A stretch of 64,000 nucleotides of DNA from a virus (Duplodnaviria > Caudoviricetes). The translations under genes and the position numbers were made by a program. The notes below the pieces were generated by a model, which was given only the letters and a program-made list of their open reading frames with translations, made no database searches and was not told the DNA's origin. Positions 2,462 through 58,525 of the stretch are shown piece after piece (position 1 is the first letter of the stretch; each line of letters opens with the position of its first letter). The stretch is from positions 96,178-160,177 of IMG/VR virus record IMGVR_UViG_3300037067_007633. One strand, given 5' to 3'.

Positions 2462-3429
2462 TATGAAACTATATTGTGTTTAACCAACAATCTATATAAT
2501 TGTTTGTCAATAGTATTGTCTTTAGCCCACTGTTTTTGTGATTTTAAAATTGTTAAATATAATTTCTTTTCTTCTTTTAATATCTTAGCCAACTTTAATA
2601 TTTTCTCAAAATCTCCATATTCATAATTCGGAATTATATGTAGTGGAAAAAGTTCTTTAACATTTGGGTGATTATCATATATTAATAGGGAGTTTAAGAT
2701 GGGACCAATCCAATCCCTAAAGCCTTTCATAGTCCCCTCTTTTGTTAATTCCGGTCTATTGTGAGAAGTAGTACCAAGAGTAAACCAACTAGATATATAC
2801 TTTCTATATATTTTTTCTAGATTTCCATCATTATGTCCTGTTCCACCACCTTGACTAAAAGTATATCCATTATCTTTGATATATTTTATCATGTTGTTTC
2901 TATAAGACCCAACATTACTTATAGAACAGGGATGATAAACTCCAATAAAATCATTGTCTTTAATTGAGAAATCAAGTGGACCAGCTAAGACCATTAATTC
3001 ATCTATTAATTTGTCTGAAATTGTCCACATCCACAAATCATTTTTTATTCCCTTTTCATCAAACCAAAACCTACAATTAGAATTTAATTCAAGTGTTAAT
3101 TCTATTTCTTCTTTTTGATCTGGTAATTGTAAAGGAAGGTTGTTTTTAATATAATACATTGTGTCGCAACACAACGTAATAAATTTAGCGTTTGGAAACC
3201 ATTTGCGTAAATCTTTAGCGGTTAATCCAGCATGTTGAGGATAACCAATTTCAAATATAAATAATACATCATTACTTTCATCCCTATTAATTTTTCTTAA
3301 TTTCATATCGGAAAAAGAAATAGTATGAACTGCACAATCTTTAATATATTTAGATAGTCCTTCTATTCCATAGTTTACACTTACTACTTCAAAAGGAACA
3401 TCAAAATCCGTAACAGTGTAAATTTTCAA
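2461..3429 (-). CDS. Putative GT-B glycosyltransferase-like protein
   Basis: C-terminal pattern loosely resembles CgeB-like GTs; glycan-gene context; TTG start. Confidence 0.45.
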   Translation of the reverse strand: MKIYTVTDFDVPFEVVSVNYGIEGLSKYIKDCAVHTISFSDMKLRKINRDESNDVLFIFEIGYPQHAGLTAKDLRKWFPNAKFITLCCDTMYYIKNNLPLQLPDQKEEIELTLELNSNCRFWFDEKGIKNDLWMWTISDKLIDELMVLAGPLDFSIKDNDFIGVYHPCSISNVGSYRNNMIKYIKDNGYTFSQGGGTGHNDGNLEKIYRKYISSWFTLGTTSHNRPELTKEGTMKGFRDWIGPILNSLLIYDNHPNVKELFPLHIIPNYEYGDFEKILKLAKILKEEKKLYLTILKSQKQWAKDNTIDKQLYRLLVKHNIVS

Positions 3430-53855: not shown

Positions 53856-54620
53856 TTAAATATTTCCTATAATTACTTTTGATGAATCTGTACATACCAT
53901 TCCCATTTTCCCAGACGTATATAAAGTATATATAGAAACTGGTAATTCGTTCTTTTTAATACAACGGGCAAAATATGGTTTAATTTTAAACTCATAACCA
54001 ATTGGGTTATATGCAGCAAAATTAGTTGGATTACTTGCATTAACTCCAATAATTTTATCTTCATCACACACATTATTTTCAACTATTTTAACGTGTCTAT
54101 AAAAATGAGTAACTAATAAACTTTTTCGTTTATTTAATTTTTGGGTATTAATAGGATTTACAAGAATATGTGTTATACAATTAAGATCAAAGACAAAACC
54201 AGCTTCTTGATAATTATATGTTGTTTTTGATAAATCAAATTCTGCAACATCTTTTAATAAATTATATGCATCTTGATCTAATTGATTTAATATTTGTTGT
54301 TTTGATACTTGATATGCTCTGTTTATAATAGAAATTCGTCTATCATCCACAAATCTAGCTAAAAAATCAACATAATCAGAATATTTACATACAGGAATCA
54401 TAAAATCATTTTGTGTATTAAAAGTCTTTAAATTTTTATATTGATATGTAGTAAATATTCCTCCTAGAATATTATTAGTTTTAATTTCTATTTCTGGTAA
54501 TTCTAATATAGGTAATTTCTTATTATTATTTGCAGTTTGTTTTCCAAAACATATAGATGGTATACATCCTATTAATGATGACGACCCAAACAATTTAATA
54601 AAATTCCTTCTATTTATCAT
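53856..54620 (-). CDS. Tat-signal protein with possible capsid-protein-derived domain
   Basis: MINRRNFIK twin-arginine leader; body resembles HK97-fold MCP segments (from memory). Confidence 0.5.
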   Translation of the reverse strand: MINRRNFIKLFGSSSLIGCIPSICFGKQTANNNKKLPILELPEIEIKTNNILGGIFTTYQYKNLKTFNTQNDFMIPVCKYSDYVDFLARFVDDRRISIINRAYQVSKQQILNQLDQDAYNLLKDVAEFDLSKTTYNYQEAGFVFDLNCITHILVNPINTQKLNKRKSLLVTHFYRHVKIVENNVCDEDKIIGVNASNPTNFAAYNPIGYEFKIKPYFARCIKKNELPVSIYTLYTSGKMGMVCTDSSKVIIGNI

Positions 54621-54624
54621 AACG

Positions 54625-55080
54625 CTAACCCTTAAGGTATTTTCGTAAAATAAAATCTAATACTATTGGGGCAATAATTCCCACAACGAGATTACGAATA
54701 CTTCCAGAAAATGGCTTTAACCATAATGGTAAAGTCATCATACTATCATACAATTTTGAGAAAGAATCAATAATAGAATCTTTAATCGACTTTTGTTCTA
54801 ATACAATAGGATCTGTAGAGCTTTCATTATATTCCGCTACATTTTCTTGAGTGAAAAGTTTTTTATTATTTTCAATTACTATGGCGATAAAATCGTCAAG
54901 AGATTCCAACAAATATCTAATTATGTTTGCAAATTCTTCTTTACGTTTTGGATCATTGATCCAAGTATTCCACCATGTTTTTACATTGTCAACAAAAGAC
55001 ACTGGTTGTAAAACTGTTTGGTGTGGGTTTTCCCAATTTAGAATTAAATAATTAGTGTGTTGTCTTAAAAGTTCGTTCAT
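54625..55080 (-). CDS. Hypothetical protein
   Basis: ORF packed in operon. Confidence 0.55.
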   Translation of the reverse strand: MNELLRQHTNYLILNWENPHQTVLQPVSFVDNVKTWWNTWINDPKRKEEFANIIRYLLESLDDFIAIVIENNKKLFTQENVAEYNESSTDPIVLEQKSIKDSIIDSFSKLYDSMMTLPLWLKPFSGSIRNLVVGIIAPIVLDFILRKYLKG

Positions 55081-55335
55081 ATTATTCTTCCTTTATTAAT
55101 TTATATTTAATCTTATCAATTATTGTATACATTGTACTATCTACTTTATCAATCATTACAGGTTGAGGTAAAATAATTTCGATATTTGCTATAGCAGAAC
55201 TATCTACACTTTCAAAAATATTTATTGACCTAATGTGTGTTAAAAAATATTCACCATCTTTTAATACATAGTCTTGATTAGTTATGGTAACCTTACCATC
55301 TTTATTAACAATTACTTTAGTATATTTATGTTCAT

Positions 55336-55680
55336 TTAACATGGTTGTGGAAAAACAATTGATGGAGGAGGGGGTGGTGATAAAGTTGGAGAGTGAGTAT
55401 ATGGATCTTTCCAAGGACTTACTTTAAAAATTCCTTCTATCTTATCTTCTGAAACACTTACCTTTTGACCATTTGATAACAATACTTCATATACCCAAAT
55501 TCTAGAAATATAACTATCACTAACACAATGATAATCGTTTTTTATTATAATTCCTGGTTCGCCATAGCCGGGATTAATAATTACAGAATCTCCAAGTGAA
55601 TATTTTGGAGGTGTTTGTATAACAGCATTAGAACATCCACATAATAGAATTAAAACGGTTAATAATAACAACTTTTTCAT
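55336..55680 (-). CDS. Putative lipoprotein
   Basis: Lipobox LCGC; Pro-rich tail. Confidence 0.6.
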   Translation of the reverse strand: MKKLLLLTVLILLCGCSNAVIQTPPKYSLGDSVIINPGYGEPGIIIKNDYHCVSDSYISRIWVYEVLLSNGQKVSVSEDKIEGIFKVSPWKDPYTHSPTLSPPPPPSIVFPQPC

Positions 55681-56063
55681 AATAAATTTCCTTTCTTTAA
55701 TCCAAATAAATATCTTCCTAGTAATTTTCTTTTTTGTCTATTGGATAATCTATCAAATACACCATTCATTAAAGATAACATAATGACATTATTAATATCA
55801 CATAATTTCCACTTACGTCTATCATTTAAGCTTTGTTTTTCTTCAAAATGATGACCTCCTCCTGGCTCTATAATACACAATATTTTATTATTACGTCTTA
55901 CTACTAAGTCAGCACTACCATATTGCCAAATATGGCGAAGTCCATTATTTCCTGGTTCACTAAATAAATTTTTAAGTGGAACTTCTAATTCAGTTTGGAA
56001 AAAATCCCATTGTGAATGAATATAATTTTCCAGCTTTAATACTTCGTCTGTAATTAATTGCAT
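55677..56063 (-). CDS. Vsr/DUF559-like PD-(D/E)xK nuclease-fold protein (128 aa)
   Basis: TELEVP...SADLVV...IIEPGGGHH...NDRRK..LC; the ORF-track extension to 56162 is only the repeat array. Confidence 0.6.
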   Translation of the reverse strand: MQLITDEVLKLENYIHSQWDFFQTELEVPLKNLFSEPGNNGLRHIWQYGSADLVVRRNNKILCIIEPGGGHHFEEKQSLNDRRKWKLCDINNVIMLSLMNGVFDRLSNRQKRKLLGRYLFGLKKGNLL

Positions 56064-56095
56064 TTTAAAAAATATAACAAAAGTTTTAAGTTTTT

Positions 56096-56170
56096 GTACC
56101 AAACAGTACATAGCCATACAGTACAGAACCGAACAGAACCGGATATTACAGCACAGTACCAAACCACATA
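56096..56170 (-). repeat. Array of 15 in-phase pentamers (conserved KGY/TAT + variable NN); putative guide ncRNA
   Basis: TATGT GGTTT GGTAC TGTGC TGTAA TATCC GGTTC TGTTC GGTTC TGTAC TGTAT GGCTA TGTAC TGTTT GGTAC. Confidence 0.85.
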
Positions 56171-56695
56171 TTAAACAATTTCTTCAAATTCTTCTACTTT
56201 AAATCTACCAAATTTTGGACGATAATCACCAATCGCCTTAATTTGCCCGGCTTCATCTAAAATAGACCTTAAAGTTGCGGCAGTAACACGATTTTCATCA
56301 TAAGTAATATTAAAAGATAATTCCCAGTCATTATAACGTGGGCGACTCTTAATAATACCTTGTCGTTGAATACGAGCAAAACGAGAATCAATTTCATCAT
56401 AAATTCGTTTATTTAGTGGAACTTTATCTGGCTCTACAAAAACCGAACTAAGAATAATTGGTTTATAATTGCCTTTTCCTTTTTTGAAATTTTTAGCCGC
56501 CTCTCTCATTGATGCTTCTAATTGTGTCGATGGAACATAACAACCAATAGTTTCATCAAAATAATTAACTGTATTTGCTTCGGTTGTTGAATCGTACTCT
56601 TTATCCTTCTTTTTTGCTTCATCGTCATTTCTTTTATTAAAACGATTTAAAAGCAGAGGTGCAGTTCCCTTAATCCTTACCTTAATCTGTTTCAT
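56171..56695 (-). CDS. Minimal RAMP/Cas7-like RNA-binding protein
   Basis: IKVRIKGTAPLLL, YVPSTQLEASMREAA, RPRYNDWELSF, Gly-rich C-terminal loop AIGDYRPKFGRF. Confidence 0.7.
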   Translation of the reverse strand: MKQIKVRIKGTAPLLLNRFNKRNDDEAKKKDKEYDSTTEANTVNYFDETIGCYVPSTQLEASMREAAKNFKKGKGNYKPIILSSVFVEPDKVPLNKRIYDEIDSRFARIQRQGIIKSRPRYNDWELSFNITYDENRVTAATLRSILDEAGQIKAIGDYRPKFGRFKVEEFEEIV

Positions 56696-56718
56696 TCTAA
56701 AAACCCTTTATTAAAAAA

Positions 56719-57114
56719 TTAAATAGGAATATCATTATCATCTGAACTATTGATTGGTGGCGATGAATTATCACTAGCTGTAGAATCTTCACTCTTTTTT
56801 CCATTACCAATAAATTGAATTTTGTCTACGTTAACCTTTAACTTAACGTGTTTCACATTATCCTTTTCCCAGGTGTCCATTTTTAATCTTCCTTCTACTA
56901 AAATAGGACTACCTTTAGAACAATATTTTGATAAATTTTCGGCGGTTTTACCCCAAGCTGTACAATCAACAAAACAAACCTCATTAGAATCTTTACCAAT
57001 ATAAGTGTTTAACCCTAAACTAAAATCACAAACCCCCATTCCACTCGGAATATATCGTAATTCTGGGTCTCGTGTTAAATTTCCAATTAAAATTACCTTG
57101 TTATAACTAGCCAT
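56719..57114 (-). CDS. ssb: Single-stranded DNA-binding protein
   Basis: NKVILIGNLTRDPELRY, VEGRL, acidic tail DDNDIPI. Confidence 0.95.
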   Translation of the reverse strand: MASYNKVILIGNLTRDPELRYIPSGMGVCDFSLGLNTYIGKDSNEVCFVDCTAWGKTAENLSKYCSKGSPILVEGRLKMDTWEKDNVKHVKLKVNVDKIQFIGNGKKSEDSTASDNSSPPINSSDDNDIPI

Positions 57115-57128
57115 TATTTTTTCTCCTA

Positions 57129-57443
57129 TTAAATACCATTAATCTTGTTAAATACAGCTAAACACTTCTTACAAACATCTGTTTGTGTTTGTAAATATTC
57201 ATTATCAATATCTACATTTTCAATATCATTAATAGCAGAATATCCACATAATGTTTTACCAAAATATGCAGAATTTTCATTTACAACAGTCAAGTGAAAA
57301 CTGTTGCTTTTTTTACCGTTGGCACAAAATCTATAATCTTGATATACTTTTAATTTCTTTTGTTTTGGTCCTAGCGGAGAAACCCTTTCTAACCCAAAAA
57401 TTGTTTCAGTTAACCAAGCGAACACATTAAAAATCATAATCAT
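57129..57443 (-). CDS. Hypothetical protein
   Basis: H...LCG...CKKC. Confidence 0.5.
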   Translation of the reverse strand: MIMIFNVFAWLTETIFGLERVSPLGPKQKKLKVYQDYRFCANGKKSNSFHLTVVNENSAYFGKTLCGYSAINDIENVDIDNEYLQTQTDVCKKCLAVFNKINGI

Positions 57444-57456
57444 TTAAAAATCTCCT

Positions 57457-57930
57457 TTAATAAGTGTTTTTAGATAAAACGTATTCAATTCCTATATCTT
57501 CATTAGACCACCACATTAATTGTATTTTCGTTAATGTTTTATATTTATACCCTGTTTTTGTTGTTCTGCGAATATAAAACTTACGTATATTGTGTGGAAT
57601 CATATTTTTATTACAATAATTTTTAAAATTCCATTCTTTCCTAGAATACAAACAATCTGAATCAATTTTTAAAATATAAATATGTTTTTGACCACGACCG
57701 TAAAAACTATATTGTTTTCTTTCTTTTGATCGTTTTTTCCAATTGTTTTGAACATTGTGTTGTTTTTCATTTGTCCATGAATCTAAAGACTTTTTATTTC
57801 TTCTTGCTCTGCCAAACTTTTCTCTTCCGTGTTCATCCTTAATTTCCTGATTAGCTGCAATTTCTTGTCGTGTTCTTATTGCTCTATAACCACAACTTAT
57901 TGATCTATTTTTCTTTTTGTGTTTTTTCAT
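57457..57930 (-). CDS. Basic hypothetical protein
   Basis: Lys/Arg-rich ORF. Confidence 0.5.
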   Translation of the reverse strand: MKKHKKKNRSISCGYRAIRTRQEIAANQEIKDEHGREKFGRARRNKKSLDSWTNEKQHNVQNNWKKRSKERKQYSFYGRGQKHIYILKIDSDCLYSRKEWNFKNYCNKNMIPHNIRKFYIRRTTKTGYKYKTLTKIQLMWWSNEDIGIEYVLSKNTY

Positions 57931-58525
57931 AGTTGAATTTATTAATTGGGGGCTTAATAGAAATTGTATGAAGTTGGATGCTATTTAATATTATTTTGTT
58001 GTAAAAATTAAAAAATAGTTTATTAAACTCTTCGTAAGTTAAACCGTTTTCATAATGTTCAAATTTTGGTATAGCTGAAACAAAAACTCCACCGGGTTTT
58101 AATACTTGATATACTTCCTCTATATATTTTTGTTGTTGTTCTTTAGTACAATGAATAAATACTTGTTCTGTTAATACTATATCAACACTTTCTTTTTCTA
58201 TTATACTTAAATTATCTGAACAAACAAACTCTGTATTAGATAAATCTTTGTTATATTCTATTGCTTTTTCTACCATTGTATAAGCAAAATCTACACCAAT
58301 ATATTTTTTAACTTTTGGGGCAACAAATTTTGCTATACGCCCAATTCCACATCCAAGATCTAATAAAACCGCATTCTGTGTATTATCTAAATTACTAAAA
58401 ATACTATCAAATTCATTTTCAAATCGTTCTTTGGTTATACCTGCATAAATAGCTTGATAAACTTTGTCTGTTAATGCTATATCTTCCCAATATTTTTTAT
58501 GAACAACAAATTGATATTTAAGCAT
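57905..58525 (-). CDS. Class I SAM methyltransferase
   Basis: LLDLGCGIGR, GVDF, VFIH, VLKPGG. Confidence 0.9.
   Translation of the reverse strand: MLKYQFVVHKKYWEDIALTDKVYQAIYAGITKERFENEFDSIFSNLDNTQNAVLLDLGCGIGRIAKFVAPKVKKYIGVDFAYTMVEKAIEYNKDLSNTEFVCSDNLSIIEKESVDIVLTEQVFIHCTKEQQQKYIEEVYQVLKPGGVFVSAIPKFEHYENGLTYEEFNKLFFNFYNKIILNSIQLHTISIKPPINKFNYEKTQKEK

What the first reader, a model, noticed from the sequence alone, without database searches (positions are those of the whole stretch)
56096..56170. Decoded array reads like a coding sequence with wobble positions skipped
Seen: the reverse complement of the variable dinucleotides with 1-nt gaps is GTn AAn GTn TAn ATn GTn GAn GAn GAn GGn TTn GCn GTn AAn AC. 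As codons this is V-[KN]-V-Y-[IM]-V-[DE]-[DE]-[DE]-G-[FL]-A-V-[KN]-T, a natural-looking beta-hairpin peptide. Inference: the guide reads codon positions 1-2 and ignores position 3, so synonymous mutation cannot escape it. The 1-nt gap is assumed. I found no such peptide among this window's ORFs by eye, so the target is probably elsewhere.
Basis: inference. Interest (0 to 1): 0.75.

Follow-up and report, generated by a model that had tools for sequence, protein, structure and literature searches.

The report
Phage VIPR guide RNA, target unknown

Summary
On the minus strand, window 56170-56096 is 15 in-phase pentamers, K-G-Y plus two variable bases, and the listed dinucleotides are correct. It is the only such array in the 160-kb phage record.

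It is a VIPR locus: a small Cas7-like Vipr gene (56171-56695), one vrRNA, and a conserved Vsr-fold accessory gene (55677-56063). Vipr is 29% identical over its full length to the tested phage SUSP1 Vipr. It keeps the G-loop D-Y/W-R and the thumb arginine. In 71 related loci, 109 pentamer arrays lie on the gene strand and none on the other.

The "1-nt gap, wobble skipped, no synonymous escape" idea is the rule published in three 2026 bioRxiv preprints. The decoded dinucleotides fit codon positions 1-2 of a target-strand gene (+5.0 bits; the other five phase and strand readings reach +1.4 at most; P about 0.003).

No credible target was found in the phage's own genome, IMG/VR, JGI metagenomes or GTDB genomes. 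The first decoded codon (GTn) belongs to the conserved 3' tail hairpin, not the guide.

Verdict: a new member of a known kind. This scan has flagged VIPR loci before on other DNA.

The parts
56171..56695 (-). vipr gene: 174-aa single-RRM RAMP (Cas7-like) protein, P0001
   Evidence: AF2 pLDDT 91.7. Foldseek top hits are Csm3 and type VII Cas7, E 5e-6, TM 0.5-0.6. It is 29% identical over 99% of its length to the phage SUSP1 Vipr, pairwise E 1e-28. The G-loop D157-Y158-R159 and R118 are kept in 76 loci. PHROG 4652, no Pfam hit.
56096..56170 (-). vrRNA repeat tract: 15 K-G-Y/NN pentamers (the finding). Units 2-14 (56165-56101) are the confident guide part
   Evidence: The same kind of array occurs on the gene strand in 45 of 71 related loci: 109 arrays against 0 on the opposite strand.
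56067..56097 (-). vrRNA 3' tail: hairpin ACAAAA (56097-56092), 9-nt loop, TTTTGT (56082-56077), then TATATTTTTT (56076-56067)
   Evidence: All four arrays of L088 end in an ACA...TGT hairpin with different interior bases, two of them followed by a T-rich stretch. The window hairpin alone is weak, -0.7 kcal/mol, and no consensus terminator was called.
55677..56063 (-). vap-like accessory gene: 128-aa Vsr/DUF559-type endonuclease fold, P0002
   Evidence: Homologues (50-67% identity) sit next to vipr in L088/89, L009, L011 and L090/91, on either side. AF2 pLDDT 85.6. VIA-align top hit is Vsr endonuclease 1cw0_A, Z 11.1, rmsd 2.4 A over 107 residues. It is not homologous to SUSP1 vap1.

Best explanation
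The array is the single guide RNA (vrRNA) of a phage-borne VIPR system.

Shown here: the sequence anatomy, the homology of the adjacent 174-aa protein to the SUSP1 Vipr, the conservation of the array-gene linkage, and the conserved Vsr-fold neighbour.

Inferred from the preprints on homologous systems: one Vipr protomer binds each pentamer. It buries the K-G-Y triplet in pockets formed by the G-loop (D157, Y158, R159) and the thumb (R118), and exposes the two variable bases. The filament then pairs these dinucleotides with double-stranded DNA of a competing mobile element. One target base is skipped per unit, so the target reads 5'-AAn GTn TAn ATn GTn GAn GAn GAn GGn TTn GCn GTn AAn (ACn)-3'. 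The skipped base falls on the codon wobble position, so synonymous mutations do not escape. The outcome is silencing, or possibly cleavage through the Vsr-like accessory protein.

The target gene is not identified.
For: 1. Array real and unique in the genome.
2. The protein is a RAMP/Cas7 fold and a full-length homologue of the experimentally characterised SUSP1 Vipr, with the GGY-holding residues aligned: D177/W178/R179 to D157/Y158/R159 and R138 to R118 (residues from 10.64898/2026.04.26.720927).
3. In 71 related IMG/VR loci there are 109 pentamer arrays on the gene strand and 0 on the other. The triplet is conserved and NN varies even between 70%-identical relatives.
4. The published 1-nt skip rule, wobble alignment and escape argument.
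5. Using this phage's own codon table, the decoded dinucleotides score +5.0 bits for 'target strand coding, skip = wobble'. The other five strand and phase readings score +1.4 or less. P(background) = 0.003.
6. A wobble-skip reading is the best of six in 14 of 19 arrays of AT-rich relatives.
7. No self-target: the best own-genome match is 20/30 bases, equal to the shuffled mean of 20.2, as the preprint reports for all its systems.
8. The tract RNA has no structure of its own (z = -0.27), as expected for a protein-held guide.
Against: No target was found. Every database hit is explained by the forced sub-pattern plus chance: the best is 12 of 15 units, in a hexokinase-like gene of a GC-rich Sedimentisphaerales MAG.

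The skip rule was shown at the bench only for type II systems (SUSP1, P. fulva). This Vipr is only 29% identical to SUSP1 Vipr and has a different accessory gene.

Position 1 of the triplet is U in 9 of 15 units. Two units are UAU and lack the G at position 2. The His that reads G1 in SUSP1 is Asn here.

The tail hairpin is weak. No expression data could be obtained.

The composition test rests on 14 dinucleotides. In the relatives it could be confounded by purine bias.
Confidence: 0.8

Rival explanations
1. The tract is a protein-binding platform without guide function. It would be a TRAP-like or autoregulatory operator in the vipr-vap intergenic RNA: the protein polymerises on the K-G-Y triplets to control translation or termination of the downstream gene, and the NN bases carry no information.
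For: Triplets spaced by 2 nt resemble the TRAP operator (own knowledge). The tract lies 33 nt before the vap start codon. No target was found.
Against: The neighbouring protein has a RAMP fold and is homologous to SUSP1 Vipr, not to TRAP. Relatives carry up to 9-10 tracts in tandem, each capped by a hairpin, which an operator does not need. NN composition is coding-like in one specific phase. In the homologous system, changing NN reprograms specificity.
Confidence: 0.05
2. It is a real vrRNA, but it is not aimed at a coding sequence in codon phase. It might bind a promoter, operator or other non-coding site, or use only a short footprint of about 6 units. The peptide reading would then be a coincidence of composition.
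For: SUSP1 vrRNA4 acts through an 18-bp, six-unit footprint. Satellites redirect VIPR to non-coding decoy sites in the host (abstract). No full-length target was found. The coding signal rests on only 14 dinucleotides.
Against: The composition favours wobble-skip on the target strand over the five other readings, P about 0.003. The preprint reports that skip bases overwhelmingly fall on wobble positions.
Confidence: 0.12
3. It is a decaying or orphan array. The relaxed triplets (7 UGU, 2 UAU) and the weak tail would mean the guide no longer assembles a functional filament.
For: G1 is lost in 9 of 15 units and G2 in 2 of 15. The tail hairpin is only -0.7 kcal/mol. No target was found.
Against: The 70%-identical relative L088 keeps four arrays with the same U-rich position 1 (63% U), so this is a clade trait and not decay. 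vipr and vap are intact ORFs with conserved key residues. The preprint lists YNNNG-type repeats as accepted variants.
Confidence: 0.03

Closest known systems
VIPR type II system of Escherichia phage SUSP1 (vipr, vap1, four vrRNAs; bioRxiv 10.64898/2026.04.26.720920, 10.64898/2026.04.26.720927, 10.64898/2026.10.15.759431)
   Same: Both have a small single-RRM RAMP protein (29% identity over the full length) with the same G-loop D-(W/Y)-R-P-x-F-G-R-F and thumb Arg. Both have pentamer guide tracts with a fixed triplet and free NN on the gene strand, a structured 3' tail, and one small accessory gene. Both are phage-borne and neither targets its own genome.
   Different: There is one vrRNA here instead of four, and it abuts the vipr stop codon. 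The triplet is K-G-U rather than G-G-Y. Asn replaces His17. The tail is a simple AT hairpin plus a U run, not a pseudoknot. The accessory protein is a Vsr-type nuclease fold unrelated to vap1. The preprint says phage-type systems carry DNA-binding vaps and that only host-borne types III and V carry nucleases.
Type III / type VII CRISPR-Cas backbone subunits (Csm3, Cmr4, Cas7)
   Same: They share the RAMP fold with G-loop and thumb (Foldseek E 5e-6), and one protomer binds per fixed number of guide bases.
   Different: The period is 5 nt with three bases buried, not 6 nt with one base flipped. No repeat-spacer array was seen by Tandem Repeats Finder in 54000-58000. No other cas-family hit was found among ten neighbouring proteins. 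The guide is gapped.
TRAP (trp RNA-binding attenuation protein) operator
   Same: Both are trinucleotide repeats separated by 2-nt spacers and bound by a homo-oligomer.
   Different: The triplet is KGY, not (G/U)AG. The adjacent protein has a RAMP fold, not the TRAP beta-sandwich ring. Relatives carry many tandem hairpin-capped tracts.

Membership tests
VIPR system | Vipr protein: a small single-RRM RAMP homologous to characterised Vipr | tested here: met
   tblastn hit to the phage SUSP1 Vipr locus. Pairwise 29% identity over 172 of 174 residues, E 1e-28. Csm3/Cas7 fold.
VIPR system | G-loop and thumb residues that hold G2 and Y3 (SUSP1 D177, W178, R179, R138) | tested here: met
   D157, Y158, R159 and R118 align to them. 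DYR is present in all 76 loci scored and R118 in all but one.
VIPR system | His17 reading G1 of the triplet | tested here: not met
   The position is Asn17 here, and H/N/T/S/Q across the family. G1 is U in 9 of 15 units here. N17 relatives mostly still keep G1, so there is no simple causal link.
VIPR system | vrRNA: at least 4 tandem pentamers with a conserved triplet and hypervariable NN, next to vipr on its strand | tested here: met
   15 units. NN strings are unrelated in the 70%-identical relative. The published variants include YNNNG.
VIPR system | Conserved structured 3' tail capping the tract | tested here: inconclusive
   An ACA...UGU hairpin follows the window array and all four L088 arrays, with varying interiors. 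The window stem is only 6 A-U/G-C pairs, -0.7 kcal/mol, and there was no formal covariation test.
VIPR system | Adjacent conserved accessory (vap) gene with a DNA-related function | tested here: met
   P0002 homologues flank vipr in six other loci. Vsr endonuclease fold, Z 11.1. Which of vap1-6 it is, if any, could not be checked because no supplement is held.
VIPR system | Natural target with at least 80% NN match under the 1-nt skip rule in a competing element | tested here: inconclusive
   No credible hit in the window, own genome, IMG/VR (7 pattern scans), JGI metagenomes, GTDB genomes or 5 related phage records. The collection scans required exact sub-patterns, so targets with scattered mismatches are missed.
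VIPR system | No self-targeting of the source contig | tested here: met
   The best own-genome match is 20/30 bases at gap 1, equal to the shuffled-order mean of 20.2.
VIPR system | vrRNA is expressed and co-purifies with Vipr | not testable with these tools
CRISPR-Cas (class 1) | Repeat-spacer array and a multi-gene cas operon | tested here: not met
   Tandem Repeats Finder found only the pentamer tract and short chance repeats in 54000-58000. The neighbouring genes are SSB, methyltransferase and glycosyltransferases, with no cas family hit.
TRAP-type attenuation operator | (G/U)AG triplets bound by a TRAP ring protein | tested here: not met
   The triplets are KGY. The adjacent protein has a RAMP fold.

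The most novel reading that the evidence does not exclude
The window, L088/89, L009, L011 and L090/91 may form a phage-borne VIPR clade whose accessory protein is a Vsr-type endonuclease. The preprints assign nucleases only to host-borne defence types III and V. If this clade is not among the seven published types, it would be a lytic-phage VIPR that cuts a rival's DNA rather than silencing it. Its triplet would be relaxed to U-G-U, and it would carry a single guide aimed at a conserved [KN]-V-Y-[IM]-V-[DE]-[DE]-[DE]-G-[FL]-A-V-[KN]-type peptide.
Probability: 0.25. Interest if true: 0.5.

Novelty: new member of a known kind. Interest (0 to 1): 0.3.

Why it matters
VIPR is a very recent discovery, proposed as an ancestor of CRISPR with a gapped guide code. 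Each further, divergent locus helps to define how far the code and the protein-RNA grammar can drift. This one comes from an AT-rich 160-kb uncultured phage. It has U-rich triplets, Asn in place of the G1-reading His, a single guide and a nuclease-fold partner.

Tried and rejected
1. My first hypothesis was a TRAP-like regulatory triplet array. I dropped it after the fold search and the tandem hairpin-capped arrays in relatives.

2. A two-quartet G-quadruplex reading of GGNNN was rejected, because GG is not kept here (UGU in 7 units).

3. Rfam gave no family in the window and none for the arrays or hairpins of five related loci, so no hammerhead.

4. Target searches:
- Full pattern in the window with up to 3 mismatches: 0 hits.
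- Own genome at gaps 0-3: only the array itself, at gap 3.
- 76 related loci: background.
- IMG/VR exact windows of units 4-12, 1-9 and 7-15 gave 4, 3 and 1 loci, none above 10 of 15 units.
- IMG/VR with units 7-9 or 10-12 left free: 0 hits.
- IMG/VR, G:U-wobble-tolerant full-length pattern: 0 hits.
- JGI metagenomes gave 68 loci and GTDB genomes 52 loci. The best was 12 of 15 units. The hits are mostly a 'YIVDDDGFA' motif of Methanothrix surface proteins plus unrelated genes.
- Five related phage records: 0 hits.

5. A single-protein locus search in IMG/VR failed and the 35-sequence alignment was too diverse. The 14-sequence alignment worked.

The preprint's supplements are not held.

7. Host inference: about 41% of genes have an SD-like motif, and no tRNA was found in the window. 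That is not enough to name a host, so I did no host-genome target scan.

8. Sequence-level searches for the accessory protein (PDB profile, Pfam) gave nothing significant. Only the fold comparison was informative.

Full report
**What is in the sequence**

The window is the last 64 kb of a 160,177-bp IMG/VR virus record. It has about 29% G+C, and the genes around the finding lie on the minus strand. Read on that strand, 56170-56096 is 15 pentamers in perfect phase: TATGT GGTTT GGTAC TGTGC TGTAA TATCC GGTTC TGTTC GGTTC TGTAC TGTAT GGCTA TGTAC TGTTT GGTAC.
- Position 3 is always a pyrimidine. Position 2 is G in 13 units. Position 1 is G or U. Positions 4-5 vary.
- The tract begins one base after the stop codon of a 174-aa gene (56171-56695).
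- It ends 33 nt before the ATG (56063) of a 128-aa gene.

The tract is far beyond chance:
- A 4-unit pattern is expected 0.04 times and occurs only here.
- A 5-unit pattern finds only this array in the 160 kb, and nothing with the reversed control.
- A periodicity scorer gives 11.4-12.4 here, against 5 or less anywhere else in the genome or in shuffles.
- Rfam has no match.
- The RNA has no structure of its own (z = -0.27).

**What it belongs to**

The 174-aa protein (P0001) has no Pfam family and one PHROG of unknown function. It has at least 147 homologues in metagenomes. Its AlphaFold model (pLDDT 91.7) matches Csm3 and type VII Cas7 backbone subunits (Foldseek E about 5e-6, TM 0.5-0.6).

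I fetched 71 IMG/VR loci that encode relatives and scanned them for 5-nt periodic GGT arrays.
- 45 loci carry them. In total there are 109 arrays on the gene's strand and none on the opposite strand.
- Some loci (L068-L076) carry up to nine or ten tracts in tandem. These are separated by 36-38-nt hairpin repeats, and the distances between repeats are always 5k+2 nt.

Literature search and this scan's notebook led to three 2026 bioRxiv preprints on VIPR (Viral Interference Programmable Repeat) systems. These describe:
- a small ancestral RAMP protein, Vipr;
- vrRNAs made of GGY/NN pentamers;
- a structured 3' tail;
- one accessory gene (vap);
- recognition of double-stranded DNA in which each NN pairs with two target bases and one target base is skipped.

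P0001 hits the type example directly. Its match in Escherichia phage SUSP1 is 29% identical over 172 of 174 residues, with pairwise E 1e-28. The residues that the cryo-EM preprint assigns to holding G2 and Y3 align as follows: SUSP1 D177, W178, R179 and R138 correspond to D157, Y158, R159 and R118. These are kept in essentially all 76 loci I scored. The His that reads G1 (H17) is Asn here.

**The accessory gene**

Homologues of the 128-aa protein (P0002; 50-67% identity) lie immediately beside vipr in L088/89, L009, L011 and L090/91, on either side. It is therefore the conserved partner in this clade. Its model (pLDDT 85.6) is closest to the Vsr endonuclease (1cw0_A, Z 11.1, rmsd 2.4 A over 107 residues). 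The next matches are other Vsr/DUF559-type nucleases. Foldseek gave only weak restriction-endonuclease-fold hits, and sequence profiles gave nothing significant. It is not related to SUSP1 vap1. The preprint states that only the host-borne types III and V carry predicted nucleases, so a phage-borne nuclease-fold partner may be a difference. I could not check the published vap list, because no supplement is held.

The assumed 1-nt gap, the wobble alignment and the 'no synonymous escape' argument are all stated in the preprints. They are supported there by pangenome searches, binding assays, reporter repression and structures for type II systems. For this array I could add three things.

(a) Guide boundaries. 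The closest relative (70% identical Vipr, L088/L089) has four arrays. Each ends '...KGT AC A...', where ACA opens a hairpin closed by TGT with a different interior; a T-rich stretch follows two of them. The window has the same arrangement: ACAAAA / TTTTGT, then TATATTTTTT. The first unit, TAT-GT, overlaps a TAATAT motif that recurs 5' of the relatives' arrays and is also uncertain.

(b) Coding likeness. I took dinucleotide frequencies at codon positions 1-2, 2-3 and 3-1 from 120 long ORFs of this phage. The 14 decoded dinucleotides score +5.0 bits for 'target strand is the coding strand and the skipped base is the wobble'. The other five strand and phase readings score +0.9 or less, or +1.4 or less with 15 units. 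Dinucleotides drawn from the genome background reach this score in 0.3% of trials. Among 19 arrays of AT-rich relatives, a wobble-skip reading wins in 14, where about 6 are expected. A purine bias of the tracts could contribute to that result.

(c) No self-target. The best match in the phage's own genome at gap 1 is 20/30 bases, the same as for shuffled unit orders (mean 20.2). At gap 3 the only perfect hit is the array itself.

**Target search**

Nothing credible was found.
- Window with up to 3 mismatches: none.
- IMG/VR with exact windows of units 4-12, 1-9 and 7-15: 4, 3 and 1 loci. Their remaining units match at chance level, and the best total is 10 of 15.
- IMG/VR with units 7-9 or 10-12 left free, which together with the above covers every single-unit mismatch in units 2-15: none.
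- IMG/VR with a full-length pattern tolerant of G:U pairs: none.
- JGI metagenomes (68 loci) and GTDB genomes (52 loci) with units 4-12: the best hit is 12 of 15 units, in a hexokinase-like gene of a GC-rich Sedimentisphaerales MAG. Most hits are a 'YIVDDDGFA' motif of Methanothrix surface proteins.
This shows that the pattern resembles a common peptide motif. It does not show that any of these genes is the target.
- Five related phage records: none.

These scans require exact sub-patterns. Natural footprints can be as short as six units. Absence here is therefore weak evidence.

**Assessment**

The array is real. Local peculiarities are a single vrRNA abutting the vipr stop codon, a U-rich position 1 shared only with L088 (54-63% U), Asn17, a simple hairpin tail and a Vsr-fold partner. 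These make it a divergent new member rather than a new kind. This scan has flagged VIPR-like loci repeatedly on other DNA, and two earlier follow-ups reached the same classification.

Noticed in passing
L068-L076 (e.g. L072:3077-4260): GC-rich relatives carry up to 9-10 vrRNA tracts in tandem. They are separated by 36-38-nt hairpin repeats (GGGCCGCA...GGTGCGGA, then TTTGC), and the hairpin interiors covary. Tract-plus-linker lengths are always 5k+2 nt. No Rfam family, and so no hammerhead, matches them.
   Followed up: partly
L090:2089-2571 (also L091): The called 160-aa gene upstream of vipr has a spurious N-terminal extension (MWFGKVRLGSVWFGKVWFG...). This is a translation of a 13-unit GGT-NN vrRNA tract at 2093-2157. 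The real product is the roughly 120-aa Vsr-fold partner.
   Followed up: partly
window 56166-56176 (- strand) and the 5' flanks of the four L088 arrays: A TAATAT-like motif sits directly 5' of the window array and of the four arrays of the closest relative. It could be a -10 promoter box or a processing signal. If so, the first unit (TAT-GT) is not part of the mature guide. AT-rich context makes this weak.
   Followed up: no
window 56645-56647 (Asn17 of the 174-aa protein): The residue aligned with the G1-reading His17 of SUSP1 Vipr varies across the family (H, N, T, S, Q). Only the window and L088 combine Asn17-Arg18 with U at triplet position 1 in over half the units. Other Asn17 loci keep G, so other residues must set this specificity.
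   Followed up: partly
window 55677-56063: The conserved partner gene has a Vsr/DUF559-type endonuclease fold with invariant D52, E66, H72, E74, D81 and K84. A nuclease-fold vap in a phage-borne VIPR is not what the preprint describes for phage-borne types.
   Followed up: partly
phage collection, GU169904.1 (Staphylococcus phage SA1) 91688-92263: A record labelled as a Staphylococcus phage carries a Vipr gene at the same identity as those of the Felixounavirus and Suspvirus coliphages. This suggests a mixed or mislabelled record.
   Followed up: no
L172:~3150-3190 and L208, L186 and similar: The decoded central motif Y-[IM]-V-[DE]3-G-[FL]-A occurs in codon phase in many unrelated genes: Methanothrix surface proteins, hexokinase-like genes of Planctomycetota, and short ORFs of Nitrospirota. 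It is a common peptide pattern and cannot by itself identify a target family.
   Followed up: yes
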